Shown in pieces: positions 418 to 62,540 of a stretch of DNA of 64,000 nucleotides. The DNA comes from a virus. Each line of letters begins with the position of its first letter. The stretch's first letter is position 1. The stretch is taken from the IMG/VR virus record IMGVR_UViG_3300023177_000002. The stretch is one strand, 5' to 3'. The position numbers were made by a program, and so were the translations under genes. The notes beneath the pieces are model-generated. The model was not told where the DNA came from. It ran no database searches and worked only from the letters and a program-made list of their open reading frames with translations.

Positions 418-431
418 GATTTCTCCTTTCG

Positions 432-513
432 TAGAGGTAGAGGGACTTGAACCCTCAAGGCTTTCGCGGCAGATTATGATTCTGCTGGGATGCCCAGTTA
501 CCCACATACCTCT
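432..513 (-). tRNA. tRNA anticodon CAT with 12-nt variable region (Leu-like scaffold), Met/Ile2-type decoding
   Basis: acceptor AGAGGTA/TACCTCT perfect, stem GCAGA/TCTGC, loop ATCATAA, variable CGCGAAAGCCTT shared with tRNA-Leu(CAA), T-arm GAGGGTTCAAGTCCCTC. Confidence 0.55.
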
Positions 514-1202: not shown

Positions 1203-2030
1203 TTAAAGTGTTTTAAATTGTTCTTTTATCATCTTCGCAAATGACGTGAATACTGGCGAAGATGATAAATCTGTTTGCCAGGCCAACCCATTTTCTACAA
1301 GATCATAAGTATGTTTAATATAAGCTCCTGGTATTGCTTTGTTGTTTTCATCACGATCGCGCCCCATTAACCACAGAATATCGGAGACTTTAATAGCTGC
1401 CCGATGATCGTGTGTGATTACTATAATGGTATTTAATTCATGTAGGTTTGCGACTTCGGTTATTAATGTACAGATTTCATCTATCATTAAAGGATCAAGT
1501 CCAGAAAAGGGTTCATCCATCAATAAAAAATGTTCGCTACATAGTAATTGTTGTATGATGGCTATTCGTTGCCGCTGTCCTCCAGATAACTGTGATGGGT
1601 ATAAATGTGTCTGTGCTTTTAAATCAAACCGCTCCAGAAATATACGTGCTTTTTCAGGAGTATCCTTTCTATTTCGCCCAGCCAACAGTAAATTGGAAAT
1701 AACTGTGCGATGTGCGAAGAGAGGATAGTTCTGAGCTACGACGCCAACACTGCCGGGGGTTACTTCTATATTTTTCTCAGTGATACGAACTGTTCCTGTC
1801 GTGGGCTTCTGCAGACCAGATAGTATACGAAATAGTTGAGTTTTGCCTATTCCTGATGGGCCCAATAATCCTACAACTTGCCCATGTCCGACGTTATTTT
1901 TAATTTCGCCGTTTACATTTTTGAGAATCTGTCGATTGCCGTATGTTAAAGAAACGTTTTCTATACGAAGCAAAGTTTCTTTTGTTATCCGTTTCATGTT
2001 CTTTCCCTCGTAATAAATGCGTATGGACAA
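1203..2030 (-). CDS. ABC transporter ATP-binding protein (nitrate/sulfonate/taurine-type)
   Basis: Walker A GPSGIGKT, signature LSGGQRQRIAI, Walker B LLMDEPFSGLD. Confidence 0.85.
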   Translation of the reverse strand: MSIRIYYEGKNMKRITKETLLRIENVSLTYGNRQILKNVNGEIKNNVGHGQVVGLLGPSGIGKTQLFRILSGLQKPTTGTVRITEKNIEVTPGSVGVVAQNYPLFAHRTVISNLLLAGRNRKDTPEKARIFLERFDLKAQTHLYPSQLSGGQRQRIAIIQQLLCSEHFLLMDEPFSGLDPLMIDEICTLITEVANLHELNTIIVITHDHRAAIKVSDILWLMGRDRDENNKAIPGAYIKHTYDLVENGLAWQTDLSSSPVFTSFAKMIKEQFKTL

Positions 2031-2779
2031 ATAGTTTTATTTAGAGCACCGATAGCATAATCAATAAATAAACCTAATACAAAGATAGTTATTTGAATAG
2101 CAAAAATATCTGCTAATTCAAAATGTTTGTTACTATCAAGTAAAAATTTACCTACACCGCCCTCGGATCTAGCAACTCCTTCAACCATAGTAAGCATCAT
2201 CCATCCCATAGCAAAGTTTTGTTGTAATACCTCGATTGCATCGCTAGCGCGCCCCAAAACAATGATTTCAAATACTGCGCGCCATTCGTTCATTTGTAAT
2301 GTACGTGCATAGTCGAACTCACTTTTTGGAATTGCTTCTATAACCGCCATCATTGAAGTGACGAAAAACACGGACATACCAAATACTTCCAACATCAATT
2401 TAAGTTGGTGCCCACCACTAGCGATTAACGTAAATAAAAATGTAAAACCAACTAGTCCTAAAAAACGACCTTTTGTCACAAACATTGCTATAGGTCTGAA
2501 AAAAGGCATTACTGTTGCATATGTCAATCCTAATGAAACGATCAATGTAATACCTATCGCTTGCAAACATAAAATAAAACTTGTGATAAGTTCTTGCCCG
2601 AAACCATTGTACCATATCTTGCTAAAGCTAGCTAAAACTTCTAATGGTTTAGGAACCACGTATGAGGGCCAAATCCACCATACTGCAACAGCTATGGCAA
2701 GTTGAATTGCTGCCATAGAAGTCATAATTGATTTGGACATAACCTTGTTTGGTGAAAACATTTCCAATGTAAGGTTCAT
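1994..2779 (-). CDS. ABC transporter permease
   Basis: multiple hydrophobic TM segments, overlaps ATPase gene in operon arrangement. Confidence 0.7.
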   Translation of the reverse strand: MNLTLEMFSPNKVMSKSIMTSMAAIQLAIAVAVWWIWPSYVVPKPLEVLASFSKIWYNGFGQELITSFILCLQAIGITLIVSLGLTYATVMPFFRPIAMFVTKGRFLGLVGFTFLFTLIASGGHQLKLMLEVFGMSVFFVTSMMAVIEAIPKSEFDYARTLQMNEWRAVFEIIVLGRASDAIEVLQQNFAMGWMMLTMVEGVARSEGGVGKFLLDSNKHFELADIFAIQITIFVLGLFIDYAIGALNKTICPYAFITRERT

Positions 2780-2848
2780 TTTATTCCTTGAATTAGAGCA
2801 ACCGCCAGGATTACTGACGGTTGCCCGAAATTTTTGATTACTTGTGAA

Positions 2849-4639
2849 TTACTCTGTGCCAGTTACTATTTCGACACGTCTGTTTTTGGCACGTCCTGTC
2901 TCTGTATCATTGTCAGCCACTGGCCGGGTTTGACCGTGTGCAACAATATTTAATCGACCTTCCGGGAATAAATCTTGGTATTTCCCTTCAAGCCAATACT
3001 GTACAGCTTGTGCGCGATCTGCCGATAAACGCATATTTCCTTCAGGAGTACCAGTATTATCAGTATGTCCATGAATTACAGCTTTCAATGACAAGCTGAC
3101 CGCAAGCTCATCTTTTAATGCTTCGAGAGTGTTCTCTTGGCCTGCACGTATAGCTGATCTACCGATTTCGAATTGAATACTATATTTACGTTTGCCGACA
3201 ACTTCTTTTAAGGTACTTCCCTTTTTGAACGTAAAACGATCTGCCGTAGAGGTATTTGTGTTGGTTTCTTTTGCAACAGCTAATACATACGAACCATCGA
3301 TAGCGATTTCTGGCGCTGGTACGCTTGGTACAAGTTTTGGATATTGCTGAATTACAACATTACCAAATGCGACGTAGGTAGATTTAAATAATCCCGAAGG
3401 ACCAAACAAAAGTACCATATCTGCAATATTGTTTGGTTTTGAACCGCCTAATTGCACTACTGAACCGTGTTTATTTAGTTCTTCTGTACCATCATGATAT
3501 CGTAACCAGTATTCAGCATCCTTCTCCTTATATACACTGGCCGAGATTTCTGCTGCGCGTTGTTTTGCGGCATCGTATCTTTTTATTTGATCTCCGGCTT
3601 CGCCAATAGCTCGAAGCATTCCTTCAACCATTTTACGATTGTCTTTGCACCACACATCGATCCCAATAATAGCATTTGGCATTTGCCCCGCATATTCACG
3701 TGTGCTTACGATATTTATGATATCTTGGTCGCATTGTTCGACGACATTCACATCACCAGGAGTCCAAGTAACTGTACCTTGAACTTTGATACGTTGTGTT
3801 TTTCCAGTTTTCTTGCCATTAATAACTACTGGACGATCTTCTTCATATCCCGCAATTAATTTAGCTGGCGCATCTAAAAAGTCATTAGCAGCAACCCAAT
3901 TTACAGCATTAGGATCGTAAGTGGTTTCATCAGGATTATTTGGAATGCCGTTGTCACCAGTATATTTCATTGCAATATTCCAGTCGCCATCTCGTAGATA
4001 ACCGGATATGACACAACCGCGCATAGACCCAGGATTCTTTTTCCACTCCGGTGGCCCCATCAATTTATCTTCACCATAAGAATAACCGGCTGAACCTATG
4101 ACTTTAGCACGATATTCAGTGCCGAGTTTTTCTAGTACTGGATTGAGTGCGGCTATAAATTGTGCAGCACCATCTCCCATTACAGCAACAAATGCAGGTT
4201 TTTCTGATGGATATGGATTTCCGTCTTTGAGCTCAGTTGCAAATGCCACTAGGTCTGCCTTCATTTTTTCACAATCATCTTGTCGCTCTAGTGTAATATT
4301 AACCCCGTACTTTTCCATAAGCGACCCCGATGTGGTAACAATACCACCATTGGCAAGCATCAGAGAAAACTGTGAATTCCAGGCCATTATTTCATACTTG
4401 AAAGTTGTGTTTGTAGCAGGTGCTGGGTCTGCCGACGGAAGCGGAAGTTCCGCTGCAATACTTTTTGTATTTGCAATATTTCCCAGATTTACCCTTTTTG
4501 CTACAACTGCCTTGGCGGGTTCTTTGCCGGGAATATATTGGTTAAGAGGTCCAAAAAATAACAAATAGAATAATGTTCCAACTATTGCCATAATAATAAG
4601 CAGCCTTCCGGCTGGGCGTATTCCGGTTCCTTCGTTCAT
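2849..4639 (-). CDS. membrane-anchored substrate-binding protein (NMT1/SsuA/TauA-like) fused to C-terminal OmpA-like peptidoglycan-binding domain
   Basis: N-terminal TM helix; central SBP-like region; C-terminal GHTDNTGTPEGNMRLSADRAQAV OmpA/MotB motif. Confidence 0.6.
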   Translation of the reverse strand: MNEGTGIRPAGRLLIIMAIVGTLFYLLFFGPLNQYIPGKEPAKAVVAKRVNLGNIANTKSIAAELPLPSADPAPATNTTFKYEIMAWNSQFSLMLANGGIVTTSGSLMEKYGVNITLERQDDCEKMKADLVAFATELKDGNPYPSEKPAFVAVMGDGAAQFIAALNPVLEKLGTEYRAKVIGSAGYSYGEDKLMGPPEWKKNPGSMRGCVISGYLRDGDWNIAMKYTGDNGIPNNPDETTYDPNAVNWVAANDFLDAPAKLIAGYEEDRPVVINGKKTGKTQRIKVQGTVTWTPGDVNVVEQCDQDIINIVSTREYAGQMPNAIIGIDVWCKDNRKMVEGMLRAIGEAGDQIKRYDAAKQRAAEISASVYKEKDAEYWLRYHDGTEELNKHGSVVQLGGSKPNNIADMVLLFGPSGLFKSTYVAFGNVVIQQYPKLVPSVPAPEIAIDGSYVLAVAKETNTNTSTADRFTFKKGSTLKEVVGKRKYSIQFEIGRSAIRAGQENTLEALKDELAVSLSLKAVIHGHTDNTGTPEGNMRLSADRAQAVQYWLEGKYQDLFPEGRLNIVAHGQTRPVADNDTETGRAKNRRVEIVTGTE

Positions 4640-5679: not shown

Positions 5680-6347
5680 TAACGTGCCTTTCTCTTTTGC
5701 GTTGAAGTTGTTTGTGTTGCTAGATATGTTTTTATTTTTGTTTCTTGCTCTCTAATTGCAGTACGTACCGAATCGAGCGTAGCAGTAAATACATCTTTTT
5801 GCGCAGACAATTGTTGCTCCTCTTGTGCGGCACCAACCAATAAATCATTAGCTTGTACTTTTAGCTTCTCGATTTGATCATTTAATTCTGCAATGGTATC
5901 ATCGATCTTTGCCGCTTGATGTCTTTTTGTATCAATACCTTTTTGCGATTCGGACAATTCAGCATCAAATTGCTCCGATGCCGCATCTACAGCACTGAAT
6001 TTTGCGGTAATAGCATTTAATAAAATTTCTACACTTGCTTTTCCTTGTTTTTGCAAAGCAATAAAAGCAGATTTAAATCTAGCAGACTCATCGGCAATAG
6101 CTTCCGATAATGACTCGACAAGACCATAAAAATCCGACAGGACTGATGGCGTTGCTTTATCAACATCTGCAACTATTTGTTGCAGAATTTCTTCATCAAC
6201 TGTCTGACGTCCAGGCTTAATACTTTTTTGTGCGGGCGTTGCCATTTTTTCGGGCGTGGCCAGCTGCTCATCAGCAGAAGGGGTTTCTTGCCCAGAATCT
6301 GGAGCAAAATTCCAGAACGGGGATAGCGCCTTCTTTAGTACATTCAT
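5679..6347 (-). CDS. coiled-coil protein, unknown function
   Basis: ORF with AGGAGA RBS upstream of ATG at 6347; coiled-coil composition. Confidence 0.4.
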   Translation of the reverse strand: MNVLKKALSPFWNFAPDSGQETPSADEQLATPEKMATPAQKSIKPGRQTVDEEILQQIVADVDKATPSVLSDFYGLVESLSEAIADESARFKSAFIALQKQGKASVEILLNAITAKFSAVDAASEQFDAELSESQKGIDTKRHQAAKIDDTIAELNDQIEKLKVQANDLLVGAAQEEQQLSAQKDVFTATLDSVRTAIREQETKIKTYLATQTTSTQKRKAR

Positions 6348-6512
6348 TATATCTCCTGATATAAAGTTTTTTGTAATCGTGGCGGAGCCATATATAATGC
6401 AAAAGTCCTATCAAATGGCTCCGGTGCTCATTGAGCGGAATTGTTTATGACAGGACTGATAATCTCCCCATATTTATTAGGCGTCGAGAGAATAATACGC
6501 CGTCCGGATAAA

Positions 6513-6846
6513 AATTTATCCCTCTGGCAGGACTCAAACCTGCAGCATTACTTTTAGTCTACTGACAGTCAGTTCCGTTTGTAAGCGTTCGACAGGGAGT
6601 AGTAAAGATCCCATTCTAATTTTCAATTGAATATTCAGCCGCTACGCAACTAAACGTTCGTCGCATGACAATTGGTTTAATCGCTTCATCCTAGTTATTC
6701 TTCCAATACACTTGCTCTGAACTTGACCATAAAGAACAGTCTATACTGGTAACTCGATGCTGTCACCTACTAATTCAATCTAGTGACTTAGTAATGTATA
6801 TTAATACGTAACAAATATACATCTCTTTTCATTTCACCACAGAGGA
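6513..6846 (-). ncRNA. candidate tmRNA(ssrA)-like RNA inside structured noncoding region
   Basis: 3' end GCAGGTTTGAGTCCTGC CAGAGGG A resembles tmRNA T-arm plus acceptor; 5' TCCTCTG at 6840-6846 can pair with the acceptor 3' strand; internal frame GAC GAA CGT TTA GTT GCG TAG (..DERLVA stop) resembles ssrA tag region; lacks G3:U70. Confidence 0.3.
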
Positions 6847-6851
6847 ATAAG

Positions 6852-6925
6852 TGTCTGCGACGGGGAACGACCCCGTGTAACTAGTTTTAGAGACTAGTGC
6901 TTATTTCGTTCTCGGCCACGCAGAC
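6852..6925 (-). ncRNA. tRNA-like element with anticodon-like loop CUCUAAA (CUA)
   Basis: GTCTGCG...TCGCAGAC perfect 7-bp acceptor-like closure, 6-bp ACTAGT stem with 7-nt loop CTCTAAA, CGGGG/CCCCG arm with short loop; D-arm poor. Confidence 0.3.
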
Positions 6926-7210
6926 AATAGTTAATTTCGATCGAGCTTACCTTTTGGATCGACCCTGGGTCTAACCCATAATTAGACAGGCTCACCTACG
7001 ACGGGTAAGTATGCGTAGGACTCCCCTGTTCCAGGGGCTTTCGCAATTAACCTAAATCATTCTGGAATGCAGTTCTGGCGAACAGTACTATGATTGTTCA
7101 TAGCTAACCAATAAGGTTAATGGGCAACACGCCAGCCCAAAGGAGGTTAACGAGGCTATGGATCCCCGGCCCATTTGGTGGTTTTAACTGCATAGTTTCA
7201 TTTTTTACTG

Positions 7211-7543
7211 TCACAATAATTTTACATTTTTAAATATATTACCATCGCTCAATACAGCGACGGCAGTTGCCTGATTCATTAAATCAGGTTCTCTAAATAA
7301 AGCATACGGAATACCTCTGACAATTAATTTGTCACGCCATTCTATAAGCTTATCCTCATTCTTTATCCGCAAATATATAAGTGTAGTATTACACCATATA
7401 CCTGGGAATTCTAACATAAATTTTGCTACTGCATGTCCAGCTTGAACTCCAGCGTATGTAAGATTTAAGTCTTCACGCACTAACACATACAGTCTGTTCA
7501 ACTGTTTCATACTGCTCCACAAGTTTTTTGATGTAATTTTCAT
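7211..7543 (-). CDS. peptidyl-tRNA hydrolase, PTH2 family
   Basis: LYVLVREDLNLTYAGVQAGHAV ... LSDG matches PTH2 conserved pattern (VVRxDLxMxxGKxAAQCxHA); start codon uncertain. Confidence 0.6.
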   Translation of the reverse strand: MKITSKNLWSSMKQLNRLYVLVREDLNLTYAGVQAGHAVAKFMLEFPGIWCNTTLIYLRIKNEDKLIEWRDKLIVRGIPYALFREPDLMNQATAVAVLSDGNIFKNVKLL

Positions 7544-7823
7544 CGGGTTCGTTACCTTGTCTTGGTCTTTCGATTTGTTCACGTTTTTTACCACGTTGTA
7601 AAGACATAAATATGTGTTTATGTCTATACTCATAGTGAGCTCTCCAAGGACTTATATTTAATTCCTTAAATTGCTTTTCTAATTGTTCTGGTATTTCTTT
7701 TGGTTTCTTTTTGCCACCGGCATTTTGTGATTGGTAGGCACGTGAATTATAGTTGTCGTAATGAAGAAATTGAGCTAAGATTTTAAGCTCGGATTTTAGT
7801 TGATTGTATTGTTCTTTTGTCAT
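7473..7823 (-). CDS. hypothetical basic protein
   Basis: ORF, partly overlaps PTH2 ORF in other frame. Confidence 0.35.
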   Translation of the reverse strand: MTKEQYNQLKSELKILAQFLHYDNYNSRAYQSQNAGGKKKPKEIPEQLEKQFKELNISPWRAHYEYRHKHIFMSLQRGKKREQIERPRQGNEPDENYIKKLVEQYETVEQTVCVSA

Positions 7824-8217: not shown

Positions 8218-8292
8218 TAGCGGGGACAGGACTTGAACCTGCATGCAGAGCTTATGAGACTCTCGTGGGGACCATTTCCAACGTACCCCGCA
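8218..8292 (-). tRNA. tRNA anticodon CAT (Met/fMet/Ile2-type), atypical D-arm, 1:72 mismatch
   Basis: T-arm GCAGGTTCAAGTCCTGT, anticodon loop CTCATAA, acceptor TGCGGGG/CCCCGCT. Confidence 0.55.
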
Positions 8293-8881: not shown

Positions 8882-9446
8882 TAACTCATAGTTTTTATAC
8901 TTTAGAGTTCTATAAGTCGATAGCGAGCTGTTAAATTTCTTTACATACCCGACGGTGTTACCTCGCTATTAGCAGGGGTTTCGCCGTTTGAGCTTTCTTT
9001 TGTCATATATATTTCTATATAAGCGACCTAATACTAAGTCGAACCCCGGTCTTGCATGGATTTAATAAAAATTCATTCACATAGTTAGTTGTATTTTTAG
9101 TCGGTCGTCTGCTACAACTACATACTTAGGACTTACTTGTATTCGGACAAGTGGCCTACATCCCCGTTTATCGCACTCATAGCAATTGGGGCCTTGCTAT
9201 CGAGTTCTCTTGTCAGCGATTAGGCCATTACGGCTACAGGTACTTCGACTAGTGCCAAAGCCTGTTCAAAAGTCATGTCAGATTTTTCTTCTGCACTTAT
9301 TGTTTAAACGGATTTTACGTCATCGGTTCACTGACGCTATGCATTTATACTACATCTCATTCAATCGATTCCTGTCGAGCCCAAATTAATATACTAAATT
9401 AATACATTAAACGCAAGTGCGGTAGAGTCGCCTCTGCCACATAATC

Positions 9447-11157: not shown

Positions 11158-11724
11158 TTATAGATACAGCTTACGTTCGATTATATATTCACGCACCGAA
11201 TCAACTACTAATCCTTTTATTGTCAAATGATTTTTTATTCGATTACGAATATCCGTTGAACTCACTTGTATGTAGGGCATAGGTAGCGACCGAAACTTAT
11301 GTGCCATCAGAGGTGCAGTACTTCGTTCAGCCACTAAAATATGTTCGTGCCCGATAATCTCTACAAGTTCATTAGGGTCCTTCCAACGGTAAAAATCTAA
11401 TAATGAATCACCACCTAACAGCAAATATAAATCATCTTCTGGATAATGATCTTTAAATAATTTTACAGTGTCTATAGTATATGATACCTTATCACGGCAA
11501 ATCTCTGTTGTATCACAATAAGTACTTTCGCATTCGAACGCCGTTAATCGTGTCATAGCGACTATATGATGAGCTTCTGTATGTTTATGATCCTTTAATG
11601 GAGAAAGCGCATTAGGCACCATAGCTATACTATCCAAATGATATAATTCCTGAGCACTTCTACACAACCATAAATGTCCAGCGTGCGGCGGATCAAAACT
11701 GCCACCAAATATTCCTAGTTTCAT
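11158..11724 (-). CDS. nicotinamide/nicotinate mononucleotide adenylyltransferase (NMNAT/NadD family)
   Basis: N-terminal GGSFDPPHAGH nucleotidyltransferase (H/T)xGH motif. Confidence 0.75.
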   Translation of the reverse strand: MKLGIFGGSFDPPHAGHLWLCRSAQELYHLDSIAMVPNALSPLKDHKHTEAHHIVAMTRLTAFECESTYCDTTEICRDKVSYTIDTVKLFKDHYPEDDLYLLLGGDSLLDFYRWKDPNELVEIIGHEHILVAERSTAPLMAHKFRSLPMPYIQVSSTDIRNRIKNHLTIKGLVVDSVREYIIERKLYL

Positions 11725-12434
11725 GGGCGTGCTCGTAAAGTTGGTTCAAGCCACAAAGGTTTGTCATCAGAAAGTAATACGTCGCGCATTGATGGGTATC
11801 GATCAAACAATTCAAAAGTTCGTGTTGTACTTGTTTTGAACATTTTAAACAATTCGTCTTTTTTACGTTCCCAAGAAATACGATTATTCAATTTGTTTAA
11901 TAACTCACGATTACCAAAACATGCTTCTACTGATAAGTCGATCTGCATTTTTTTGGTTACGGCAAATCTTAACGCGCGTAGCATGCGTAAAGCATCTTCA
12001 TTGAAGCGATCTTCGGGCTTACCAACACATTTAATGAGATTATTTTGTATGTCAATCAACCCACCATGCGGGTCAATAAAAGGACGCTTTGGATCTTGCA
12101 TGTCGATCGCAATAGCATTCATTGTGAAATCACGTCTGGCTAGATCGTCATACAATGTGCCCAACTCAACAGTATCAGGTCTACGACCGTCTGAATAGTT
12201 ACCATCCTTTCGACATAACACAAAATCAGCATCACCAAAACCATCTATATGAGCACGGATAGTGAAGTATTCTGGGGTCTCGAGATATATTTTGCCTTTG
12301 GCAAGAATATAATTTCTCATTTCTTCCCAAGAAACTGCTACTACTGCATAATCAATATCTTTTGACTTAACGCGTAATATTAAATCTCTAACACTACCAC
12401 CAACTTGAAATATTCTGATCATTTGTTGTGCCAT
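11721..12434 (-). CDS. tRNA nucleotidyltransferase (CCA-adding enzyme family) head domain
   Basis: VGGSVRDLIL (GGxVRD) and RRDFTMNA motifs of polyA polymerase/CCA family; only 237 aa. Confidence 0.7.
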   Translation of the reverse strand: MAQQMIRIFQVGGSVRDLILRVKSKDIDYAVVAVSWEEMRNYILAKGKIYLETPEYFTIRAHIDGFGDADFVLCRKDGNYSDGRRPDTVELGTLYDDLARRDFTMNAIAIDMQDPKRPFIDPHGGLIDIQNNLIKCVGKPEDRFNEDALRMLRALRFAVTKKMQIDLSVEACFGNRELLNKLNNRISWERKKDELFKMFKTSTTRTFELFDRYPSMRDVLLSDDKPLWLEPTLRARP

Positions 12435-34090: not shown

Positions 34091-34757
34091 TTACCATTTA
34101 CCCTTTATCCACGCTTTCAGATCGCGTCGCTCGTTTGTTCTATGGTCAATCCATAAATTATGTTTTACCATATAAGTACGAATTTTTTCTGCTCGATGTC
34201 CCGACCCCATCTGCAATCGTTTATTTTGGGCCGCTTGTTTTTGATGATTATATTTAGCGATACGTTGTAACTTAGAATATAATATTTCAAAAGCAAGTTG
34301 TTTGTTTTGGTACTGGGATCTTTCGGAACCGCAACGAACAGTTAACCCTGATTTATGTTTTAATACAACAACTGTTTCAACTTTATTACGATTCTGTCCT
34401 CCAGGACCGCTTCCTTTAGTGGTTGTAACTTCAACGTCATTAAAATTTATACTGACCTCGGGAAGTTCTATAAGATCCAACACTGCAACTGTTACAACAG
34501 AGGTATGTGTTCGTCCTCGGTTTTCTGTAGGAGGAACTCTGTGCCATTGGTGCGCACCACCCTCGTTTTCAAATAATTCCTTTGCTCTTTGTCCGATAAC
34601 CTGAACTGAAGCAAACCCATCACTAACATATATTGGAATTGCCTCAAAGTCCGTGTTTATACGCGACTTTTAAATAAATACTTAATTGATCCTCGACGAG
34701 GAGTTTTGCATCCGCTCCACCCTCGCCAGCTTGTAATTCCAATAAAATGTTACTCAT
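34091..34757 (-). CDS. class I peptide chain release factor homolog (RF1-like, GGQ and PxT-type motifs, lacks domain 1) requiring +1 frameshift at 34644-34649
   Basis: upstream segment LELQAGEGGADAKLLVEDQLSIY (RF domain 2) ends at CUU UGA; +1 frame continues EAIPIYVSDGF...HQWHRVPPTENRGRTHTSVV...SGPGGQNRNKVETVV...IRTYMV matching RF1 domains 2-4. Confidence 0.7.
34644..34649 (-). other. candidate programmed +1 ribosomal frameshift site CUU UGA (G), identical core to prfB site
   Basis: minus-strand CTT TGA GGC; reading CTTT|GAG GCA restores RF-like frame. Confidence 0.55.
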
Positions 34758-34814
34758 GATGTTTTTCCTTTCTACCCAAGGTTTGAATTTCTTCAGGGAC
34801 ACAAGGGGAATGTA

Positions 34815-34974: not shown

Positions 34975-35039
34975 ATATCGCGGGTAATTTAAGCGACGTC
35001 AGTGTTTTTAATTTAGCTACTACGTATTTTCATACGCGC

Positions 35040-35112
35040 TAGGACTTGAACCTAGAGTGTTATATTTTTGAGATATATGCTTTAACCGATAACTAACATC
35101 TATCGACCCGCT
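35040..35112 (-). pseudogene. degenerate tRNA-like element (T-arm and CAA anticodon-like hairpin but no acceptor pairing)
   Basis: CTAGGTTCAAGTCCTAG T-arm, TATAT/ATATA stem with loop CTCAAAA; 5'/3' ends do not pair. Confidence 0.3.
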
Positions 35113-53310: not shown

Positions 53311-56082
53311 ATGGCAGATCAAGATCTTGAATATAGACTAAAAATAGACACAAGTGATTTAGCTTCTCAACTACAACAGGTACGCGCACAAATCGACCAG
53401 GCCCTCGGTGCGCAAGTATTTAATACAATTACTCCTTCAACACAACCCGCAGCTTTTGCTTTCCCAATGCAGCAAGCGCTGGCAAATGCACAAATATCGC
53501 TAGGGCAAGATATAAATAATACAATAAGCGCGGCACAGAATGCGCAGAACGATGTACATCGTGCAATGCAATCCATGCGTCTTGGATTTCAGAAATTTAA
53601 TAACGATGTAATGACATCTTATTTATCACAGGTTGATGTACCCATGTTTGCATCTGCACAAGGTGCGCCAATACCGTCATTTCATAACCGCGGTGTTTTT
53701 CAAAACTTAACCGCCAATGTTATTGGTTTGGGATATGACCCATCAATGTCACTTACGCCAGGAGAGTTCCGACGACGCGCAGGCTATGAATTTGCTAATC
53801 AATCAGGCAGGTTAACATTTGGAATAGGCGGTTCAATGCTTGGTGGTATAGCAGGAAGCCTAACTCCAATACCTTTTGGAAGTGTTATTGGAACTGTACT
53901 CGGAGGTATGGTAGGTGATATGGCATATGATGTCGCAGGAACTACCATATTACGAGATTACGAACAAGCAAGCGCAATCCGTGATTTTGCATATAATACT
54001 TCTTGGCGTACATTTGCTGGAAGATTCACAAGACAGCAAGCTTTACAGATTGGCCAGGATTTATCAACTGTAGCAAGAAGCGAGGCATTGGTTGGATATG
54101 GTGTTACAAATACTGATGTACAACGTGTAATGCAGGAATATACCGCTATTGGTGGGTTCGATACTGTAAGATCAGCAGAAGAATATCGAACTCGTGCAAA
54201 AGATATGATTGAGAATCATCGCAAAGTAATGCAGATATTACGTCTTACTGAAGAAGACGCTTTACAGTATATGAATACCATGCAAATGTATGGACGACCT
54301 ATAACCGGTAATTCAGCAATAGGTACAGCTACAATGGCATATGCTGCTGGTTATACACCAAAAGAATTTATGTCATTTGCACAACAAGCTGCGGAGATGG
54401 TACGTGGTACCGGGATAAATTTAGGGTCAGCGTTTGCGGGAGGAATGGATGCATTATTACGTACTAAATCATTTGTCGAAGCAGGCACCGTTCCGATGGA
54501 ACTAATACAACAGTATGGTGGAATACAACAATATACATTAAATACAACTCGTATGGGATACGAATGGGCTAATAGTATGAATGGCTTTACTCGTTTTGCT
54601 GCGGGTATGACATCGGGCGGATTAATGGGTACCGTTGGTATGAGTCCACAAGAAGCGATTGGTACCGCAGTTGCAAATCTTAGTGCCGGGGGAATCGAAG
54701 GCATATTGGGAATGCAGGGTCGTATGGGTAAATTAATCAGTAATGAAAATCCCACAGTCCTTGCGGCTATGCGCGGATTAGATATAGCATCAGTTATGAA
54801 GATGTTAAATATAAATCCTACAATGGAAAATTTTATGGGATTTGCGCAGACAACACTAGGGGTGTCGTTACCAGATGCCGAATCATCATATCGAATGGCT
54901 ACAGGAGGTGCAACGGTTAATATAGCTAAACTACGTAATACCGGCTATCAAACAGCGGTTGATATGGCTCCATCGACACTTGCCCAGATGTCTGATCGTT
55001 TTACAAATGTCATTAGTAATACAATGGCTGCTACAGGAAACTTTCTAGGATTACCTACGGCTTTGCGAGGATTAGAACAATACGCTGAAAAAGTACTTGG
55101 TAACGCAACATTGAGAGAGCCTGATTATATAACACGTACACGCACTTCTGCTATAAACGCCCTGTTCACTGGAATAGATCACGAACGTTTCGATGATTTA
55201 CAAAAAGTTCTTGGATCTGAAAAAGCGGTGGTCGACTTAATATATGCTTCTGAAAATGAACGAAAAAATATACTTGAAAGTGTGTCTGACGCAAATGACA
55301 AACAAACAACTCTTGCACGAGAATATTTTATAAATCGAAATTTAAATAAATTACGTCAAGTTGATTCAAAAACCACGGCGGCGGAGAAGACGCTGCAAGA
55401 ACGACTTGCCGAGCCAATGACACAAGAAAAAATGCAACTTCTTATAAATGAAAAGTTGGTGTCAAATATAAAAGATTTTGCTAAACCCGGGATGACTAAG
55501 GGGGAAGCAACTAGAATAACACAATTGTATAACAAAACTACTGCGGCACAAGAAGAGCAAACAGTAAGTGATATATTAGCAGGCCCGCAAGTTTCTTTTT
55601 TACGAGGAATAGCGCGGGGGCTAGATGAATGGGGGCTAGAACGTGAAGATATTGCATCGCGTGTTGAAGTTAGTAAGACATTTCGAGCAAATAAATGGCT
55701 GACAGCCACATTAAACCGCGCTGGCGCTGTGGTCGCTCGTGGCGCCGCCGAGCTTATCGGACGAGGTACTGGTGCCGATACTTTCAATTCTCAAACCAGT
55801 GATCTATTACAAGAATCAGGAATTAGTGCCGAGAAAGCAAAAGTAGACGATCAGCTGAAAGATCAAAAAAAGGTAAATGACCAACTGGATCTAATAGCAA
55901 AACAAATGAAACAGTTCGGCGCAATAGGTATGACTGGAGGACTAAGTCCTGAAGCAACGATGCAAGCACAAAGTAACGCTGCGCAGGCAGCGGCATTGAA
56001 AGAAATTATTACAAACACAGCTACGCTGAAAAAAGCTGCTGATCAAGCCACTGGTTATATAAATGTTAAAGTACATTGGTAA
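53311..56082 (+). CDS. putative tail tape measure protein (923 aa)
   Basis: very long ORF after chaperone-frameshift pair, Q/A-rich helical sequence with internal Gly-rich hydrophobic segment. Confidence 0.45.
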   Translation: MADQDLEYRLKIDTSDLASQLQQVRAQIDQALGAQVFNTITPSTQPAAFAFPMQQALANAQISLGQDINNTISAAQNAQNDVHRAMQSMRLGFQKFNNDVMTSYLSQVDVPMFASAQGAPIPSFHNRGVFQNLTANVIGLGYDPSMSLTPGEFRRRAGYEFANQSGRLTFGIGGSMLGGIAGSLTPIPFGSVIGTVLGGMVGDMAYDVAGTTILRDYEQASAIRDFAYNTSWRTFAGRFTRQQALQIGQDLSTVARSEALVGYGVTNTDVQRVMQEYTAIGGFDTVRSAEEYRTRAKDMIENHRKVMQILRLTEEDALQYMNTMQMYGRPITGNSAIGTATMAYAAGYTPKEFMSFAQQAAEMVRGTGINLGSAFAGGMDALLRTKSFVEAGTVPMELIQQYGGIQQYTLNTTRMGYEWANSMNGFTRFAAGMTSGGLMGTVGMSPQEAIGTAVANLSAGGIEGILGMQGRMGKLISNENPTVLAAMRGLDIASVMKMLNINPTMENFMGFAQTTLGVSLPDAESSYRMATGGATVNIAKLRNTGYQTAVDMAPSTLAQMSDRFTNVISNTMAATGNFLGLPTALRGLEQYAEKVLGNATLREPDYITRTRTSAINALFTGIDHERFDDLQKVLGSEKAVVDLIYASENERKNILESVSDANDKQTTLAREYFINRNLNKLRQVDSKTTAAEKTLQERLAEPMTQEKMQLLINEKLVSNIKDFAKPGMTKGEATRITQLYNKTTAAQEEQTVSDILAGPQVSFLRGIARGLDEWGLEREDIASRVEVSKTFRANKWLTATLNRAGAVVARGAAELIGRGTGADTFNSQTSDLLQESGISAEKAKVDDQLKDQKKVNDQLDLIAKQMKQFGAIGMTGGLSPEATMQAQSNAAQAAALKEIITNTATLKKAADQATGYINVKVHW

Positions 56083-56091
56083 CGAGGATAT

Positions 56092-58464
56092 ATGCTATCA
56101 GCATCAAAAATAAAATGTCATGTATATCTTGAAAATGTAGAAATTGATTTTTCAAATATACATATAATCGAACAAATCGGAACACCACCAACCGCTATCA
56201 TAAATGTGGTTCCTATAAAAAATATCTTTAATATTTTACCGAAGACTATTTGTGTTATAACCTTGGAAGAAATTAAAAGTTATAAAGATGGAATACCTGT
56301 ATATGAAGAAGTGGTTATATTTTTTGGTGAATACACTGATAACGGGCTGAATCGTACAGCGACCTCATCCGAAGTGCAGTTAACATTTACTGGATTTACA
56401 GGTAATTGGGATACAAATCCGATAGTACCGATAGATGCTACTATCCCAACGGCAGCTGAATCCGTTATGCTCGGTATAAATTATTTTACTAATACTGGGG
56501 CAGATGGAAAGGGGATATATTATAGTAAGTTTCCTTCACTATTACTTAGTCTTGTGAACTTTATGGATACAACCAAAGACGACAAAACTATAAAAGATTA
56601 TGAACAAGTTTTAGGCTCGACAAATAGTCGTAATAAATTAATGGCAGGTTTAAAAGCATATTGGAAAAATAATCCGCCGGAGGGGCCGGATTTTAAATTT
56701 CACCGCGGTACAAAATTGCGTGCAAGAATTGCACTAGTTATAAATCACTTTTTGTTTAAGTATGGCCCGTTTTTAAATGGCTTGATGCAAAGTTTATTAT
56801 TTGATTCAATGATAAATTATATCGGGTCTGGCACTATGGAAAATCTTGCAAAGAGTACTGCCGTGCTAGCATATCTAAAAGAACGTATACGTGGTATCGC
56901 AAGTTCAGGATCAATGCCTGTTTCATCAGCTATCCGAAAAATTTTAGAGCCGTTTAAATATACTTTTCAGGAATTTGCGGCGCCGGTTCTAACAATCGAT
57001 GCTTTAAGCGACATTGCTGAATTAACTTTGTCTAAAGTTATTGTTGCACCAGAATGTAATCTGTTGGCGCCCATATCCAATAATGTATTTTTCGATGATG
57101 ACGTCGAAACAATACAAATGAATCGTTCTTGGAGAAATGAACCAACTAGATTGATTTATACTTCCAATACAATTCCAACCAAAGACGAAAGCGGCAACAT
57201 CATTATAAATGCTATGTTGGCTATTATTGTGCCAGCAAAAATACTGGTCAGTGATGTAATAAATAAACTTTCAAAGTTAACTGCGTCTTCAAGAAAAGCG
57301 TTGCGAGAAGGCGCCGTGAAATCTGAAGAATCCGAACGTTGGGTTGTGGATACATTTGACAAATATATAAAATCTTTTAAAAACCAGAAAACTATTGGAT
57401 TAGCGAGCACTGAAAATGAGCAAATTAAAACTTTGTCACAAAATAAAACTATATCTAATGATAATGCCGTATTAAATAAAGATGTTATTGATATATTAAA
57501 ATACACCAATGAAGAGGCAATGCGTGGTGTCGTGTCATTGGTGGAAAAAGATGATAGCGCTTTAGAACAAGCATTCCTATTGAATGCGGTAAAAGATTCG
57601 TTATCTACCGAAGTTGAATCTCCTGCAGCAATTTCTTCTGATAAAAATTTCGAAAAGATAGATACAGATAAAAAATTATTTGATCGCATGAATATGGGTA
57701 ATGGTTCTGAAGCATTAATGAATTATAAAATGCAACTTGCTGAAACTATTTACGTAGAGAAGCGTCGTATAGGCAGAACCGCTGCTTTGCGTGTTACTTT
57801 TTCGCCATATCGAGTGTGTGGTGCACAATCGTTATTATTGTTAAAAGACTTTGGTCCACTCACTGGTGTAATTACTACAAATATTATAAATATCAGTGCG
57901 CAAGGAGAAGCAGTACAAAATATAAATTTATCACACGTATCTTGTGTTGATACATCTCTACCGACAGAAAGTTACGCCGATTTCCTTGATCCATATAAAG
58001 ACATATTGCCACCGACATTATCTGAATTTAATGTTAAAGAAGTTGGTGGAAGGTTATACGTGTATTTGACTGGACGCTCAGATAGTTCAGTTTATGATTA
58101 TTGTGTTAATAATTTACAATTAAACGCTAGGGGCGAAGATATAGATCCACTTTCTACAAGTAAATGCGCCGCAAAATTACAAGAAAAATACAATGTTATA
58201 AAAGATACGGCGACCCTAAAAAAGTTCACAGATGATTTGACATATCGACGATTAGCTACGTTAAAAGAATTAATGTCTGGATTATCAAATGCAGTAGATA
58301 AACTAACCGCTAGATCACTATGTGACTCCGCAGGAAAACCTTACTTCGTAGGGCAAGTTGACATGGATTCTCCTAGACCTTTTATACGAGAACGACAAAA
58401 CATGATATTAAATATTTTTAAAGCTACAAACCCGGCCGTAGCTGTTTGGAAAGGATTAGAATAA
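56092..58464 (+). CDS. putative tail/baseplate structural protein (790 aa)
   Basis: position in structural module. Confidence 0.35.
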   Translation: MLSASKIKCHVYLENVEIDFSNIHIIEQIGTPPTAIINVVPIKNIFNILPKTICVITLEEIKSYKDGIPVYEEVVIFFGEYTDNGLNRTATSSEVQLTFTGFTGNWDTNPIVPIDATIPTAAESVMLGINYFTNTGADGKGIYYSKFPSLLLSLVNFMDTTKDDKTIKDYEQVLGSTNSRNKLMAGLKAYWKNNPPEGPDFKFHRGTKLRARIALVINHFLFKYGPFLNGLMQSLLFDSMINYIGSGTMENLAKSTAVLAYLKERIRGIASSGSMPVSSAIRKILEPFKYTFQEFAAPVLTIDALSDIAELTLSKVIVAPECNLLAPISNNVFFDDDVETIQMNRSWRNEPTRLIYTSNTIPTKDESGNIIINAMLAIIVPAKILVSDVINKLSKLTASSRKALREGAVKSEESERWVVDTFDKYIKSFKNQKTIGLASTENEQIKTLSQNKTISNDNAVLNKDVIDILKYTNEEAMRGVVSLVEKDDSALEQAFLLNAVKDSLSTEVESPAAISSDKNFEKIDTDKKLFDRMNMGNGSEALMNYKMQLAETIYVEKRRIGRTAALRVTFSPYRVCGAQSLLLLKDFGPLTGVITTNIINISAQGEAVQNINLSHVSCVDTSLPTESYADFLDPYKDILPPTLSEFNVKEVGGRLYVYLTGRSDSSVYDYCVNNLQLNARGEDIDPLSTSKCAAKLQEKYNVIKDTATLKKFTDDLTYRRLATLKELMSGLSNAVDKLTARSLCDSAGKPYFVGQVDMDSPRPFIRERQNMILNIFKATNPAVAVWKGLE

Positions 58465-59432: not shown

Positions 59433-60135
59433 TAATTTAAAACAAAACGAGATAGCAATTTGGAAGCGATGGAAGCATACAGGTGATCCTCAATTCGCCA
59501 ATCAGTTGTTGCGTTCAATGGATCCATTTTTACAATCATATGTAAATAAATATACTGGTGCGCCGTTACCTAGACCCGCAATTGAAAGCCAGGCACGTAT
59601 TTTGGCTTTAAAGGCGTTTAGCACCTTTAAGCCGACGATGGGTACGCAATTAAATACGCATGTTGGTCATGAGTTAAAGCATTTACATAGATATGTGCTT
59701 GAGTATCAAAACGTTGGAAAAATACCCGAAAACCGAGGTATAGCCATAAGTAAATTTAAAAATATAAAGGCCAACTTAACCGAATCACTAAATCGTGAGC
59801 CAACAGTAATAGAACTGGCCGATGAACTACAGTGGTCGCCTGCAGAAGTAGAACGTATGCAGGCTGAATTACGCGCCGACTTAAACGTCATACAAGGTAA
59901 GGAAGAGGCGTTCTTTGATAGTCAATTGAATATGACAGATTCAAGTAGAGACCTCGTAGAATTTGTATATTGGAGTAGTACCCCCGAAGAACAAAAAGTC
60001 ATAGAGTATTGGTTTGGAATAGGTGGGGCCCCGAAGTTAAACTTACAACAAATATCACGTAAGTTACATAAAACTGAAGAAGAGATTAGAACAATAAGCA
60101 AAAGAATAGCACAACGTGTTAAGGAAAGTATGTAA
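59425..60135 (+). CDS. sigma-70 family sigma factor-like protein
   Basis: region 2-like QLLRSMDPFLQSYVNKY and region 4 HTH-like LNLQQISRKLHKTEEEIRTISKRIAQRV. Confidence 0.45.
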   Translation: MSNNLKQNEIAIWKRWKHTGDPQFANQLLRSMDPFLQSYVNKYTGAPLPRPAIESQARILALKAFSTFKPTMGTQLNTHVGHELKHLHRYVLEYQNVGKIPENRGIAISKFKNIKANLTESLNREPTVIELADELQWSPAEVERMQAELRADLNVIQGKEEAFFDSQLNMTDSSRDLVEFVYWSSTPEEQKVIEYWFGIGGAPKLNLQQISRKLHKTEEEIRTISKRIAQRVKESM

Positions 60136-62539: not shown

Positions 62540-62540
62540 T

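What the first reader, a model, noticed from the sequence alone, without database searches (positions are those of the whole stretch)
6852..6925. 74-nt tRNA-like element with anticodon-like loop CUCUAAA (CUA, amber-reading) next to the tmRNA-like RNA
The minus-strand segment reads GTCTGCG-TG-...-ACTAGT-CTCTAAA-ACTAGT-TACA-CGGGG-TCGTT-CCCCG-TCGCAGAC-A. It has a perfect 7-bp acceptor-like closure, a 6-bp stem with a 7-nt loop carrying U33 and a CUA triplet, and a GC-rich T-like arm. The D-arm is poor and the T-loop is only 5 nt, so it may be a tRNA-like structure rather than a decoding tRNA. Even so, a CUA-type element beside a phage-encoded RF1-like gene would be notable.
Basis: seen in the sequence. 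Interest (0 to 1): 0.5.

Follow-up and report, generated by a model that had tools for sequence, protein, structure and literature searches.

The report
Phage amber-suppressor tRNA with hydrolase partner
This is a real transfer-RNA gene built to read the UAG stop codon, carried by a giant phage that otherwise uses the normal genetic code; it travels through many phages as a fixed trio with two small protein genes, one shaped like a peptidyl-tRNA hydrolase.

Summary
The element at 6852-6925 (- strand) is real. ARAGORN calls a tRNA with anticodon CUA, and Rfam's tRNA model scores it 43.6 bits against a cut-off of 29. The same gene sits at the same place in six related jumbo phages, where 16 of 21 stem pairs show compensatory changes and the CUA anticodon never varies.

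It is not tRNA-Pyl and not part of a larger RNA. It is not beside a tmRNA (the tmRNA homolog is 2.1 kb away) or beside the RF1-like gene (27 kb away).

The window, 4 kb beyond it and the relatives all use the standard code. TAG is an ordinary, rare stop, and I found no in-frame TAG, so wholesale recoding is not supported.

The gene just upstream encodes a 99-aa Pth2-fold protein. It is followed by a tRNA(CUA) in 43 of 51 unrelated IMG/VR phage loci, often within 10 nt. A ~110-aa helical protein gene precedes it in at least 28 of those loci. In nine loci the Pth2-like gene itself carries one in-frame TAG.

The window's copy is the family outlier: T-loop GUCGUUC and no GG in the D-loop. However, those two loops are complementary over 6 nt.

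Best reading: an amber suppressor tRNA belonging to a conserved cassette that I could not find described. Its role in this standard-code phage is unresolved.

The parts
6852..6925 (-). tRNA gene with anticodon CUA. The discriminator is A at 6852, and no CCA is encoded (the next bases are CUUAUU).
   Evidence: ARAGORN. Rfam RF00005 43.6 bits. Syntenic orthologues with compensatory changes.
6888..6890 (-). Anticodon C34-U35-A36, inside the loop CUCUAAA (6886-6892).
   Evidence: Read from the sequence. The CUA is invariant in all 7 syntenic copies. The loop is CUCUAAA in 36 of 49 family members.
7211..7510 (-). 99-aa Pth2-fold protein gene, the conserved upstream partner of the tRNA. An upstream ATG at 7633 would give 140 aa.
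   Evidence: Weak PF01981 match in all 7 orthologues. AlphaFold model with pLDDT 91.8. The top 13 PDB fold matches are all Pth2/Bit1, TM 0.64-0.80. A tRNA(CUA) lies downstream in 43 of 51 IMG/VR loci found through the protein alone.
7473..7823 (-). 116-aa all-helical protein gene that overlaps the start of the Pth2-like gene; third member of the cassette, function unknown.
   Evidence: Conserved in the six relatives. Found by tblastn just upstream of the Pth2-like gene in at least 28 IMG/VR loci. No match in Pfam, PHROGs, PADLOC, PDB sequences or PDB folds.
11721..12434 (-). Phage nucleotidyltransferase with a PolyA_pol head domain, a candidate CCA-adding enzyme. The tRNA would need this activity because CCA is not encoded.
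   Evidence: Pfam PF01743, E = 2.7e-20. A second gene at 47228-48295 matches the PHROG 'tRNA nucleotidyltransferase'. Its link to this tRNA is inferred.

Best explanation
The element is a maintained tRNA gene with anticodon CUA, of the amber-suppressor type. It is the RNA member of a conserved phage cassette: a ~110-aa helical protein, a ~100-aa Pth2-fold protein, then tRNA(CUA).

Proposed mechanism:
1. The tRNA is transcribed with the leftward gene block that also holds 34 other tRNA genes.
2. It is cut out by host RNase P and 3' processing enzymes.
3. It receives its CCA end from the phage's own nucleotidyltransferase.
4. It is charged by a host synthetase whose identity is not fixed across the family.
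5. It pairs with UAG in the ribosomal A site in competition with RF1.
6. The Pth2-fold partner most likely hydrolyses the acyl- or peptidyl-tRNA species that this activity creates, limiting or cleaning up suppression.

This phage and its relatives are written in the standard code, with TAG as a normal rare stop. The job here is therefore not genome-wide recoding. It is more likely low-level or timed UAG read-through, or buffering of nonsense codons.

Shown: the gene, its conservation, the cassette, UAG inside frames of some cassettes, and the standard code here.
Inferred: processing, charging, competition with RF1, and the role of the hydrolase.
For: The tRNA is real and maintained:
- It is called by two independent methods.
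- Orthologues sit at the same place in L007, L009, L011, L013, L014 and L017. 94.6% of stem cells are paired, 16 of 21 pairs have changes on both sides, and 0 of 500 shuffles reach this.
- Across about 52 distinct CUA tRNAs, 96% of cells are paired, on a model-fitted alignment.
- The CUA anticodon is invariant, and A37 and A38 are nearly so.

The cassette:
- 43 of 51 loci found through the protein have a tRNA(CUA) downstream on the same strand. In at least 17 of them it starts within 10 nt of the stop codon.
- Control: of 117 loci fetched through an unrelated neighbouring protein, only 2 had a tRNA(CUA), and both are relatives of this phage. L017 was confirmed to carry the Pth2-like gene. L054 has the same tRNA and flanks as L009.
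- Relative L012 lacks both cassette proteins and the tRNA together.

Decoding in the family:
- Nine cassettes have one in-frame TAG inside the otherwise conserved Pth2-like ORF. None is interrupted by TGA or TAA.

The window copy:
- All 17 pairs of its acceptor, anticodon and T stems are Watson-Crick, despite only 51-65% identity to its relatives.
- Its odd D-loop (GAACGA) and T-loop (UCGUUC) are complementary over 6 nt, with a chance of 0.002-0.005.
Against: - No UAG that needs decoding was found in this phage. Standard-code ORFs cover 86% of the window.
- Structural genes of 923, 790, 635 and 450 aa are intact, as are their homologues in relatives.
- TAG ends 7-15% of genes in the tRNA-bearing relatives.
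- The window copy is the only one of 49 with a non-canonical T-loop and one of two without GG in the D-loop.
- It has the lowest Rfam score of the orthologues, 43.6 against 50-63 bits.
- Two D-stem pairs are broken.
- It sits 285 nt from its partner gene, between two insertions.
- Its thermodynamic optimum is not the cloverleaf: -26 against -21 to -25 kcal/mol.
- The discriminator base varies (A 19, U 14, G 14, C 2) and the acceptor stems vary freely, so no amino-acid identity can be assigned.
Confidence: 0.6

Rival explanations
1. Decaying copy. The family is functional, but in this phage the tRNA is a relic that no longer folds or decodes properly.
For: - It is the only family member with a non-canonical T-loop (G54, U58), and it has no G18G19.
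- Its D-stem has C.A and G.A mismatches.
- It has the lowest Rfam score among the orthologues.
- It is separated from its partner gene by 285 nt and followed by a 344-nt insertion.
- The same phage's tmRNA homolog is also sub-threshold, 37.4 bits against 78-102 in relatives.
- The MFE fold is not a cloverleaf.
Against: - All 17 acceptor, anticodon and T-stem pairs are intact, with compensatory changes relative to relatives.
- The anticodon loop CUCUAAA is the family consensus.
- The D-loop and T-loop changes are mutually complementary over 6 nt, which random decay gives in about 0.2-0.5% of trials.
- Both partner genes are intact, and the Pth2-like protein is 64-79% identical to the orthologues in close relatives and 47% to that of L017.
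Confidence: 0.2
2. Non-decoding partner RNA. The tRNA serves mainly as a substrate, guide or decoy for the Pth2-fold protein. Examples would be an RF1-independent way of ending translation at UAG, or an uncharged A-site ligand. It would not be there to insert an amino acid.
For: - The discriminator and acceptor stem are hypervariable, as if amino-acid identity did not matter.
- C33 replaces U33 in 7 of 49 copies.
- The tRNA is tightly and almost obligatorily linked to a hydrolase-fold gene.
- The genomes keep TAG as a true stop.
- The same phage also carries an RF1-type factor.
Against: - In-frame TAG codons inside the conserved Pth2-like ORF in nine loci require insertion of an amino acid.
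- The A36-A37-A38 loop is typical of decoders of U-starting codons (established knowledge).
- Pth2 enzymes are known to act on free peptidyl-tRNA, not in the A site (established knowledge).
- The lysine aligned with the Pth2 catalytic Lys is not conserved in this family.
Confidence: 0.1
3. Code-15-type recoding. Late or lysis genes elsewhere in the ~215-kb genome contain in-frame TAG, and the tRNA is the code-change device described for recoded phages.
For: - Recoding is known to be confined to parts of phage genomes, and a partial sequence can miss it (10.1101/2021.08.26.457843).
- Only about 68 of about 215 kb were seen.
- Some cassette-bearing phages have in-frame TAG, and loci L165 and L168 gain coding density when TAG is read as sense.
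Against: - The 11-kb structural block at 53311-63893 is intact in the standard code.
- The collinear block of relative L134 is intact.
- Homologues of the 923-aa protein are full length in relatives.
- No in-frame TAG spans conserved sequence across about 21 kb in each of 7 genomes.
- TAG is used as a stop.
- Reading TAG as sense gains no more ORF length than reading TGA or TAA as sense.
Confidence: 0.07
4. Pyrrolysine tRNA, as ARAGORN's label suggests.
For: - ARAGORN's label is 'tRNA-Pyl'.
- The window copy can form a 6-bp anticodon stem with a 3-nt variable loop.
- It lacks G18G19 and T54, features I recall for tRNA-Pyl.
Against: - ARAGORN's label follows from the anticodon alone.
- There are two nucleotides (U8, G9) between the acceptor and D stems, and the D-loop is 10 nt.
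- All relatives have canonical D- and T-loops.
- No pyl genes appeared among the roughly 30 of ~95 window ORFs scanned.
Confidence: 0.01

Closest known systems
Suppressor tRNAs of stop-codon-recoded phages (crAss-like, Lak, Agate, Jade and others; Borges et al., bioRxiv 10.1101/2021.08.26.457843; Peters et al., PMC9523058)
   Same: It is a phage-encoded tRNA with anticodon CUA, encoded in a standard-code part of the genome among other translation genes. That work also reports suppressor tRNAs in standard-code relatives of recoded phages.
   Different: No recoded genes were found here or in relatives. The 'code change module' described there is tRNA + tRNA synthetase + release factor. Here the fixed partners are a Pth2-fold protein and a small helical protein.
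The two CUA tRNAs of the standard-code jumbo phage XacN1 (PMC5852040)
   Same: XacN1 is a jumbo phage with dozens of tRNA genes, the standard code and amber-type tRNAs. Its authors found no read-through targets, as here.
   Different: In XacN1 the CUA tRNAs lie in the terminal repeats. The homologue of the Pth2-like protein is a domain of a 279-aa ORF with no tRNA next to it.
PTH2 genes of jumbo phages (Iyer et al. 2021, PMC7824862)
   Same: An archaeo-eukaryotic-type peptidyl-tRNA hydrolase fold in large phages, proposed to help ribosome rescue.
   Different: That survey does not mention suppressor tRNAs (0 occurrences of 'suppressor'). The family here is a short divergent branch, below Pfam's cut-off, and is almost always followed by tRNA(CUA).
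Laboratory amber suppressors (supE, supF, su+7) in E. coli and T4 (my own knowledge)
   Same: The anticodon is CUA in an otherwise ordinary elongator tRNA, with an A37/A38 loop context and competition with RF1.
   Different: Those arise by anticodon mutation of an identifiable isoacceptor. Here no parent isoacceptor can be named, and the identity elements drift freely.
tRNA-Pyl
   Same: The anticodon is CUA. The window copy lacks G18G19 and T54 and can form a 6-bp anticodon stem.
   Different: The spacer between acceptor and D stems, the D-loop size and the canonical relatives do not fit.

Membership tests
tRNA (Rfam RF00005) | Covariance-model score at or above the curated gathering score of 29 bits | tested here: met
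   43.6 bits, full-length match to model positions 1-71. ARAGORN also calls it.
tRNA (Rfam RF00005) | Four-helix cloverleaf kept by compensatory substitutions among homologues | tested here: met
   In 7 syntenic sequences, 94.6% of cells are paired and 16 of 21 pairs have changes on both sides. Slid controls give 37-49% paired. About 52 family members are 96% paired, on a model-fitted alignment.
tRNA (Rfam RF00005) | Core nucleotides U8, A14, R15/Y48, U33, R37, U55, C56, G53-C61 | tested here: met
   Read from the sequence and the Rfam alignment.
tRNA (Rfam RF00005) | Elbow nucleotides G18-G19 in the D-loop and T54/A58 in the T-loop (established knowledge) | tested here: not met
   The D-loop is AGAACGAAAU, with no GG. 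The T-loop is GUCGUUC. It is the only one of 49 family members with a non-canonical T-loop. Instead there is a 6-nt complementarity between the D-loop and T-loop.
Amber suppressor tRNA (decodes UAG) | Anticodon CUA in a 7-nt loop with U33 and A37 | tested here: met
   The loop is CUCUAAA, which is the family consensus.
Amber suppressor tRNA (decodes UAG) | UAG is translated inside reading frames of the same genome | tested here: not met
   No in-frame TAG was found in 64 kb of window plus 4 kb of extension, or in the relatives' homologous regions. About 147 kb of the genome was not seen.
Amber suppressor tRNA (decodes UAG) | UAG is translated in genomes that carry a homologous tRNA | tested here: met
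   Nine loci have one in-frame TAG within the conserved Pth2-like ORF. Seven of the nine have the tRNA(CUA) called downstream in the locus. No locus is interrupted by TGA or TAA.
Amber suppressor tRNA (decodes UAG) | Aminoacylation by a synthetase | not testable with these tools
   The discriminator varies (A 19, U 14, G 14, C 2) and so do the acceptor stems. No closest isoacceptor could be found among the phage's own tRNAs.
Stop-codon-recoded (code 15) phage | Genes are fragmented under the standard code and restored when TAG is read as sense | tested here: not met
   Standard-code coding density is 86%. Reading TAG as sense gives no specific gain. Late genes are intact here and in relatives.
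tRNA-Pyl | One nucleotide between acceptor and D stems and a ~5-nt D-loop (recalled from the literature) | tested here: not met
   There are two nucleotides (U8, G9) and a 10-nt D-loop.
tRNA-Pyl | pylS and pylBCD genes present | not tested
   No such domains appeared among the roughly 30 window ORFs scanned. The other ORFs and the rest of the genome were not scanned.
Pth2 (PF01981), for the partner protein | Pfam gathering score of 23 bits | tested here: not met
   18.9 bits for the window protein. All 7 orthologues match weakly, with a best E-value of 7.3e-5.
Pth2 (PF01981), for the partner protein | Pth2 fold | tested here: met
   The model has pLDDT 91.8. PDB matches 1-13 are all Pth2/Bit1-family chains, with TM 0.64-0.80 normalised to the query.
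Pth2 (PF01981), for the partner protein | Catalytic Lys and Asp (residues recalled from the S. solfataricus enzyme) | tested here: inconclusive
   In the alignment to 2zv3, the Lys of the GK motif falls on Y/S/Q, while an invariant E-P-D lies at the Asp position.
tmRNA (RF00023), for the adjacent 344-nt RNA | A match to the tmRNA model, or an ARAGORN tmRNA call with a credible tag | tested here: not met
   No Rfam hit in 6300-7500 at E <= 10 other than the tRNA. Relaxed ARAGORN gives only implausible permuted calls that overlap ORFs.

The most novel reading that the evidence does not exclude
The tRNA is the RNA component of an undescribed, widely distributed three-gene phage cassette: a ~110-aa helical protein, a ~100-aa Pth2-fold protein and tRNA(CUA). 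Together they would form a dedicated system for handling UAG codons. The suppressor's acyl- or peptidyl-tRNA products would be governed by its own hydrolase. The in-frame UAG found in the hydrolase gene of some phages would act as a built-in sensor of suppressor activity. The system would operate in phages that keep the standard code. The window's copy would additionally be a natural tRNA whose elbow is held by a Watson-Crick loop-loop helix instead of the universal G18G19/T-loop contacts.
Probability: 0.35. Interest if true: 0.8.

Novelty: new variant of a known kind. Interest (0 to 1): 0.6.

Why it matters
Phage suppressor tRNAs are known mainly as tools for stop-codon recoding. Why standard-code jumbo phages keep them has been an open puzzle; the XacN1 authors found no targets.

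The tRNA(CUA) turns out to be almost obligatorily coupled to a Pth2-fold protein and a second small protein across dozens of diverse phages. Sometimes a UAG sits inside the hydrolase gene itself. This gives the puzzle a concrete handle: a three-gene unit that can be cloned and tested for read-through level, charging, hydrolase specificity and effect on infection.

It also suggests that annotation pipelines could use the cassette to flag suppressor tRNAs.

Finally, the window's copy may be a natural example of a tRNA with a re-wired elbow, which would interest people who engineer orthogonal tRNAs.

Tried and rejected
Searches that found nothing:
- Megablast of the region, and tblastn of a structural protein, against 50,697 phage records gave no match.
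- Exact and degenerate pattern scans of IMG/VR for the tRNA gave none.
- Single-protein scans of IMG/VR with the two flanking proteins gave none.
- Copies of the same phage in five Logan runs are 100% identical and so uninformative.

Analyses that did not resolve the question:
- Relaxed ARAGORN for a tmRNA next to the tRNA gave only implausible permuted calls. An ARAGORN intron search found nothing new.
- Rfam at E <= 10 on the two flanking structured RNAs and on the L013 gap gave no family.
- I tried to assign an amino-acid identity by similarity to the phage's 34 other tRNAs. No clear parent emerged, with best identities of 0.62-0.72 spread over Lys, Arg, Cys, His and Trp.
- I looked for conserved TAG-terminated genes as read-through targets. 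The only recurrent TAG (on the cytidylyltransferase gene) overlaps the 5' end of tRNA-Gln in L007. The recurrence is probably explained by that overlap, which I checked only there.
- The in-frame TAG search first produced many hits. They proved to be off-frame shadows and translated tmRNA.
- The sigma-70 promoter and terminator scan gave nothing above chance.
- The 116-aa partner gave no match in Pfam, PHROGs, PADLOC or PDB sequences, and a single-sequence AlphaFold model gave no fold match.
- 6-kb loci could not show whether the nine phages with TAG inside the Pth2-like gene are recoded genome-wide. Coding density was ambiguous except in L165 and L168, and there was no excess of TAG-bridged ORF pairs.

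Full report
**1. What is at the coordinates**

The - strand of 6852-6925 reads GUCUGCG UG GCCG AGAACGAAAU AAGC A CUAGU CUCUAAA ACUAG UUAC ACGGG GUCGUUC CCCGU CGCAGAC A.
- ARAGORN calls a 75-nt tRNA with anticodon CUA. Its label 'Pyl' follows from the anticodon alone (drawn).
- Rfam's tRNA model matches over its full length at 43.6 bits, against a gathering score of 29, with E = 5.7e-6 for the window.
- It is the only Rfam match in 6300-7500 even at E <= 10.
- The acceptor (7 bp), anticodon (5 bp, or 6 with A26-U44) and T (5 bp) stems are all Watson-Crick.
- U8, A14, G15/C48, U33, A37, U55 and C56 are in place.
- The D-stem has only two good pairs.
- The D-loop AGAACGAAAU lacks the universal GG.
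- The T-loop is GUCGUUC rather than UUCGAAU.
- CCA is not encoded.

Its '5-nt T-loop' is simply the alternative in which G54 pairs with C60.

**2. The genome around it**

The window has 37% G+C and carries 35 tRNA genes, all on the - strand. It also carries:
- a class II-like ribonucleotide reductase, NAMPT, a DNA ligase and nucleotidyltransferases of the CCA-adding type;
- a + strand block of large structural genes ending in a baseplate wedge protein.

It is a jumbo phage. Proteins from the window lie on contigs of up to 215,168 bp. It has no close relative among 50,697 deposited phage genomes or in IMG/VR. Other assemblies of it, from Logan runs, are 100% identical over the overlapping parts.

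Homologues of a neighbouring 347-aa membrane protein occur in Bacteroidota genomes, which hints at the host phylum.

**3. Genetic code**

- Under the standard code, non-overlapping ORFs cover 86% of the window. The stops are TAA 52, TGA 33 and TAG 10, and some of the TAG cases are spurious ORFs over tRNA genes.
- Reading TAG as sense lengthens ORFs no more than reading TGA or TAA as sense.
- The structural genes (923, 790, 328, 236, 635 and 450 aa) are uninterrupted.
- Homologues of the 923-aa protein are full length in relatives.
- The collinear structural block of relative L134 is intact.
- I ran a homology-guided search for TAG codons spanned by conserved protein sequence, across the window, its 4-kb extension and seven relatives. 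It found only off-frame shadows, translated tmRNA and natural stops.
- In the tRNA-bearing relatives, TAG ends 7-15% of the called genes.

The clade therefore uses the standard code in everything I could see, which is about 68 of about 215 kb here.

**4. Conservation of the tRNA**

I fetched syntenic loci through homologues of the 347-aa protein. A tRNA(CUA) sits at the same place, between a 99-aa gene and a ~220-aa gene, in these loci:
- L007 (neighbouring protein 71% identical to the window's)
- L009 and L054
- L011
- L013
- L014 and L015
- the more distant L017 (43% identical)

Alignment of the 7 distinct sequences and pair counting gave:
- 94.6% of stem cells paired, against 76% in shuffles and 37-49% when partners are slid;
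- 16 of 21 pairs with changes on both sides;
- 0 of 500 shuffles reaching the observed value;
- C34-U35-A36-A37-A38 invariant.

The relatives' copies are ordinary tRNAs, with GG in the D-loop and UUCGAAU-type T-loops. They score 50-63 bits with Rfam. The hairpins are not part of a larger conserved RNA, because conservation with relatives stops at the tRNA borders.

**5. The cassette**

The 99-aa gene immediately upstream (7211-7510) is more conserved than its neighbours, at 64-79% identity among the close relatives and 47% to L017.

Evidence that it has a Pth2 fold:
- It matches Pfam PTH2 weakly in all seven orthologues (best E = 7.3e-5, below the cut-off).
- It matches a PHROG annotated 'hydrolase'.
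- Its AlphaFold model has pLDDT 91.8. The top 13 PDB matches are all Pth2/Bit1 structures, with TM 0.64-0.80.

I then searched IMG/VR with the protein alone and recovered 51 loci.
- 43 of them have a tRNA(CUA) downstream on the same strand.
- In at least 17 of them the tRNA starts within 10 nt of the stop codon.
- A covariance model adds one more, L149.
- As a control, 117 loci fetched through the unrelated 347-aa protein contained a tRNA(CUA) only twice. Both are relatives of this phage. L017 was confirmed to carry the Pth2-like gene, and L054 has the same tRNA and flanks as L009.
- Relative L012 lacks the 99-aa gene, the gene before it and the tRNA together.

Among deposited genomes the pattern is mixed:
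- The 462-kb and 735-kb 'huge phages' LR756500 and LR756501 have tRNA(CUA) 0.8-2.2 kb downstream of the homologue.
- Lak phages have a tRNA(UUA) about 600-700 nt upstream instead.
- XacN1, RAS14 and E. coli phage A4 have the domain inside longer ORFs with no tRNA nearby.

The 116-aa gene at 7473-7823 overlaps the start of the Pth2-like gene.
- It is conserved in the relatives.
- It is found in the same position in at least 28 IMG/VR loci.
- It is predicted to be all-helical.
- It matches nothing in Pfam, PHROGs, PADLOC, or PDB sequences or folds.

**6. Does the family decode UAG?**

In nine of the IMG/VR loci the Pth2-like ORF carries exactly one in-frame TAG. The positions differ between loci, and conserved motifs continue on both sides. 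Two examples are ...MLDFP#NTWNNQTLIYL... and ...KFSVF#EPDLDN.... No member is interrupted by TGA or TAA. UAG is therefore read as an amino acid in those phages.

The 6-kb loci could not show whether those phages are recoded throughout. L165 and L168 gain coding density with TAG as sense. The others do not, and TAG-bridged ORF pairs are not in excess.

**7. Identity and oddities**

Across 49 distinct cassette tRNAs:

| Feature | Counts |
|---|---|
| Anticodon loop CUCUAAA | 36 |
| Anticodon loop CCCUAAA (C33) | 7 |
| Discriminator A | 19 |
| Discriminator U | 14 |
| Discriminator G | 14 |
| Discriminator C | 2 |
| CCA encoded | 29 |

The acceptor stems vary at every pair. I could not name a parent isoacceptor. 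Either different synthetases charge different members, or the inserted residue is unimportant, or charging is not the point.

**8. The window's copy**

Signs that it is an outlier:
- It is the only one of 49 with a non-canonical T-loop, and one of two without GG.
- It scores lowest with Rfam.
- It is separated from its partner gene by 285 nt and from the conserved downstream leader by a 344-nt insertion.

Signs that it is still under selection:
- All 17 pairs of three stems are intact, with compensatory changes.
- D-loop GAACGA is perfectly complementary to T-loop UCGUUC. A run of 6 arises in 0.2-0.5% of shuffled or random loops.
- The cloverleaf (-21 to -25 kcal/mol) and the alternative fold that uses this pairing (-26 kcal/mol) are nearly isoenergetic.

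This looks more like a re-wired elbow than random decay. It is a post-hoc observation and needs probing.

**9.

- The RF-like gene is 27 kb away. ORF1 (34644-34758) ends ...GGA CUU UGA G, and the +1 frame continues into an ORF with PPT (the RF1-type PxT motif) and GGQ.
- The joined product matches RF1 models better than RF2 or PrfH: 170-176 bits against 120 and 75. It aligns to RF1 structures straight through the junction and lacks domain 1.
- The phage's tmRNA homolog is at about 9036-9375 and is sub-threshold, at 37.4 bits against a cut-off of 47. Relatives have clear tmRNAs.

**10. Literature**

- Suppressor tRNAs, release factors and 'code change modules' of recoded phages are described in 10.1101/2021.08.26.457843, which also reports suppressor tRNAs in standard-code relatives.
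- XacN1 has two CUA tRNAs with no identifiable targets (PMC5852040).
- PTH2 in jumbo phages is noted in PMC7824862, with no mention of suppressors.
- Searches combining Pth2 or peptidyl-tRNA hydrolase with suppressor tRNA and phage found no description of the linkage. The library does not cover all journals.

**11. Verdict**

The element is a conserved amber-suppressor-type tRNA gene in a standard-code jumbo phage, which is a known kind of thing. What is new, as far as I could search, is twofold. First, it belongs to a widespread three-part cassette with a Pth2-fold protein. Second, this particular copy has an unusual, possibly compensated elbow. Its function in this phage remains inferred.

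Noticed in passing
window 6508-6851 (-); L013 8226-8535: This 344-nt insertion lies directly 3' of the tRNA and is absent from L009 and L011. It folds as a closed RNA: its 5' UUAUUCCUCUG pairs with its 3' CAGAGGGAUAA, next to a T-arm-like hairpin GCAGG-UUUGAGU-CCUGC (z = -2.85). Its 5' end resembles the start of a tRNA-Leu D-arm. L013 has a homologous ~300-nt RNA with compensatory changes in the closing stem. Neither matches any Rfam family.
   Followed up: partly
window ~9036-9375 (-): The phage's tmRNA homolog scores only 37.4 bits, against a gathering score of 47. ARAGORN misses it, and the Rfam alignment lacks the 5' acceptor strand and the 3' end. Six relatives have clear tmRNAs (78-102 bits) with tags such as AKEENSSMTFEDALAMVSAPAVVLA.
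   Followed up: partly
window 34091-34758 (-), junction at 34644-34649: An RF1-type release factor (PPT and GGQ motifs, no domain 1) is split into two ORFs at CUU UGA G. This is the same slippery context as the RF2 +1 frameshift site, but in an RF1-like gene and without an upstream Shine-Dalgarno-like sequence. It could be programmed frameshifting or a pseudogene. I did not check conservation in relatives.
   Followed up: partly
L011 9065-9138, L013 9144-9216, L017 4089-4160 and four IMG/VR loci: Seven of 49 cassette tRNAs have C33 in place of the near-universal U33 (loop CCCUAAA).
   Followed up: partly
L189 1844-1916 (Lak-B5); L192 1734-1806 (Lak-A2): In Lak megaphages the homologue of the Pth2-like protein lies about 600-700 nt downstream of a tRNA with anticodon UUA (ochre type), not CUA.
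   Followed up: partly
window 7121-7188 (-); L011 8973-9040: A 68-nt non-coding element upstream of the tRNA is 82% identical between the window and L011. In L011 it lies inside a called 182-aa 'gene'.
   Followed up: no
window 431-513 (-); L007 14984-15066, L009 14981-15065, L011 15016-15098: A tRNA with anticodon CAU, 83-85 nt long, has a long variable arm, which is unusual for Met or Ile2 tRNAs. It is conserved at the same place in relatives and scores low with Rfam: 30.7-32.7 bits in L007 and L011, and no match at the gathering score in the window or L009.
   Followed up: no
window 35031-35103 (-) and 8218-8292 (-): There are two weak tRNA-like matches that ARAGORN does not call: 31.1 bits with Rfam at 35031-35103, and 18.7 bits (Rfam) or 30.9 bits (family model) at about 8220-8290. 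At the equivalent position after the tmRNA, relatives L007, L011 and L014 have a tRNA-Met.
   Followed up: no
window 1203-4639 (-): The phage carries an ABC-transporter ATPase, a permease-like protein and a 596-aa OmpA-domain protein. In relatives the OmpA-domain protein is fused to an NMT1-type substrate-binding domain. This is an unusual cargo, conserved across the clade.
   Followed up: no
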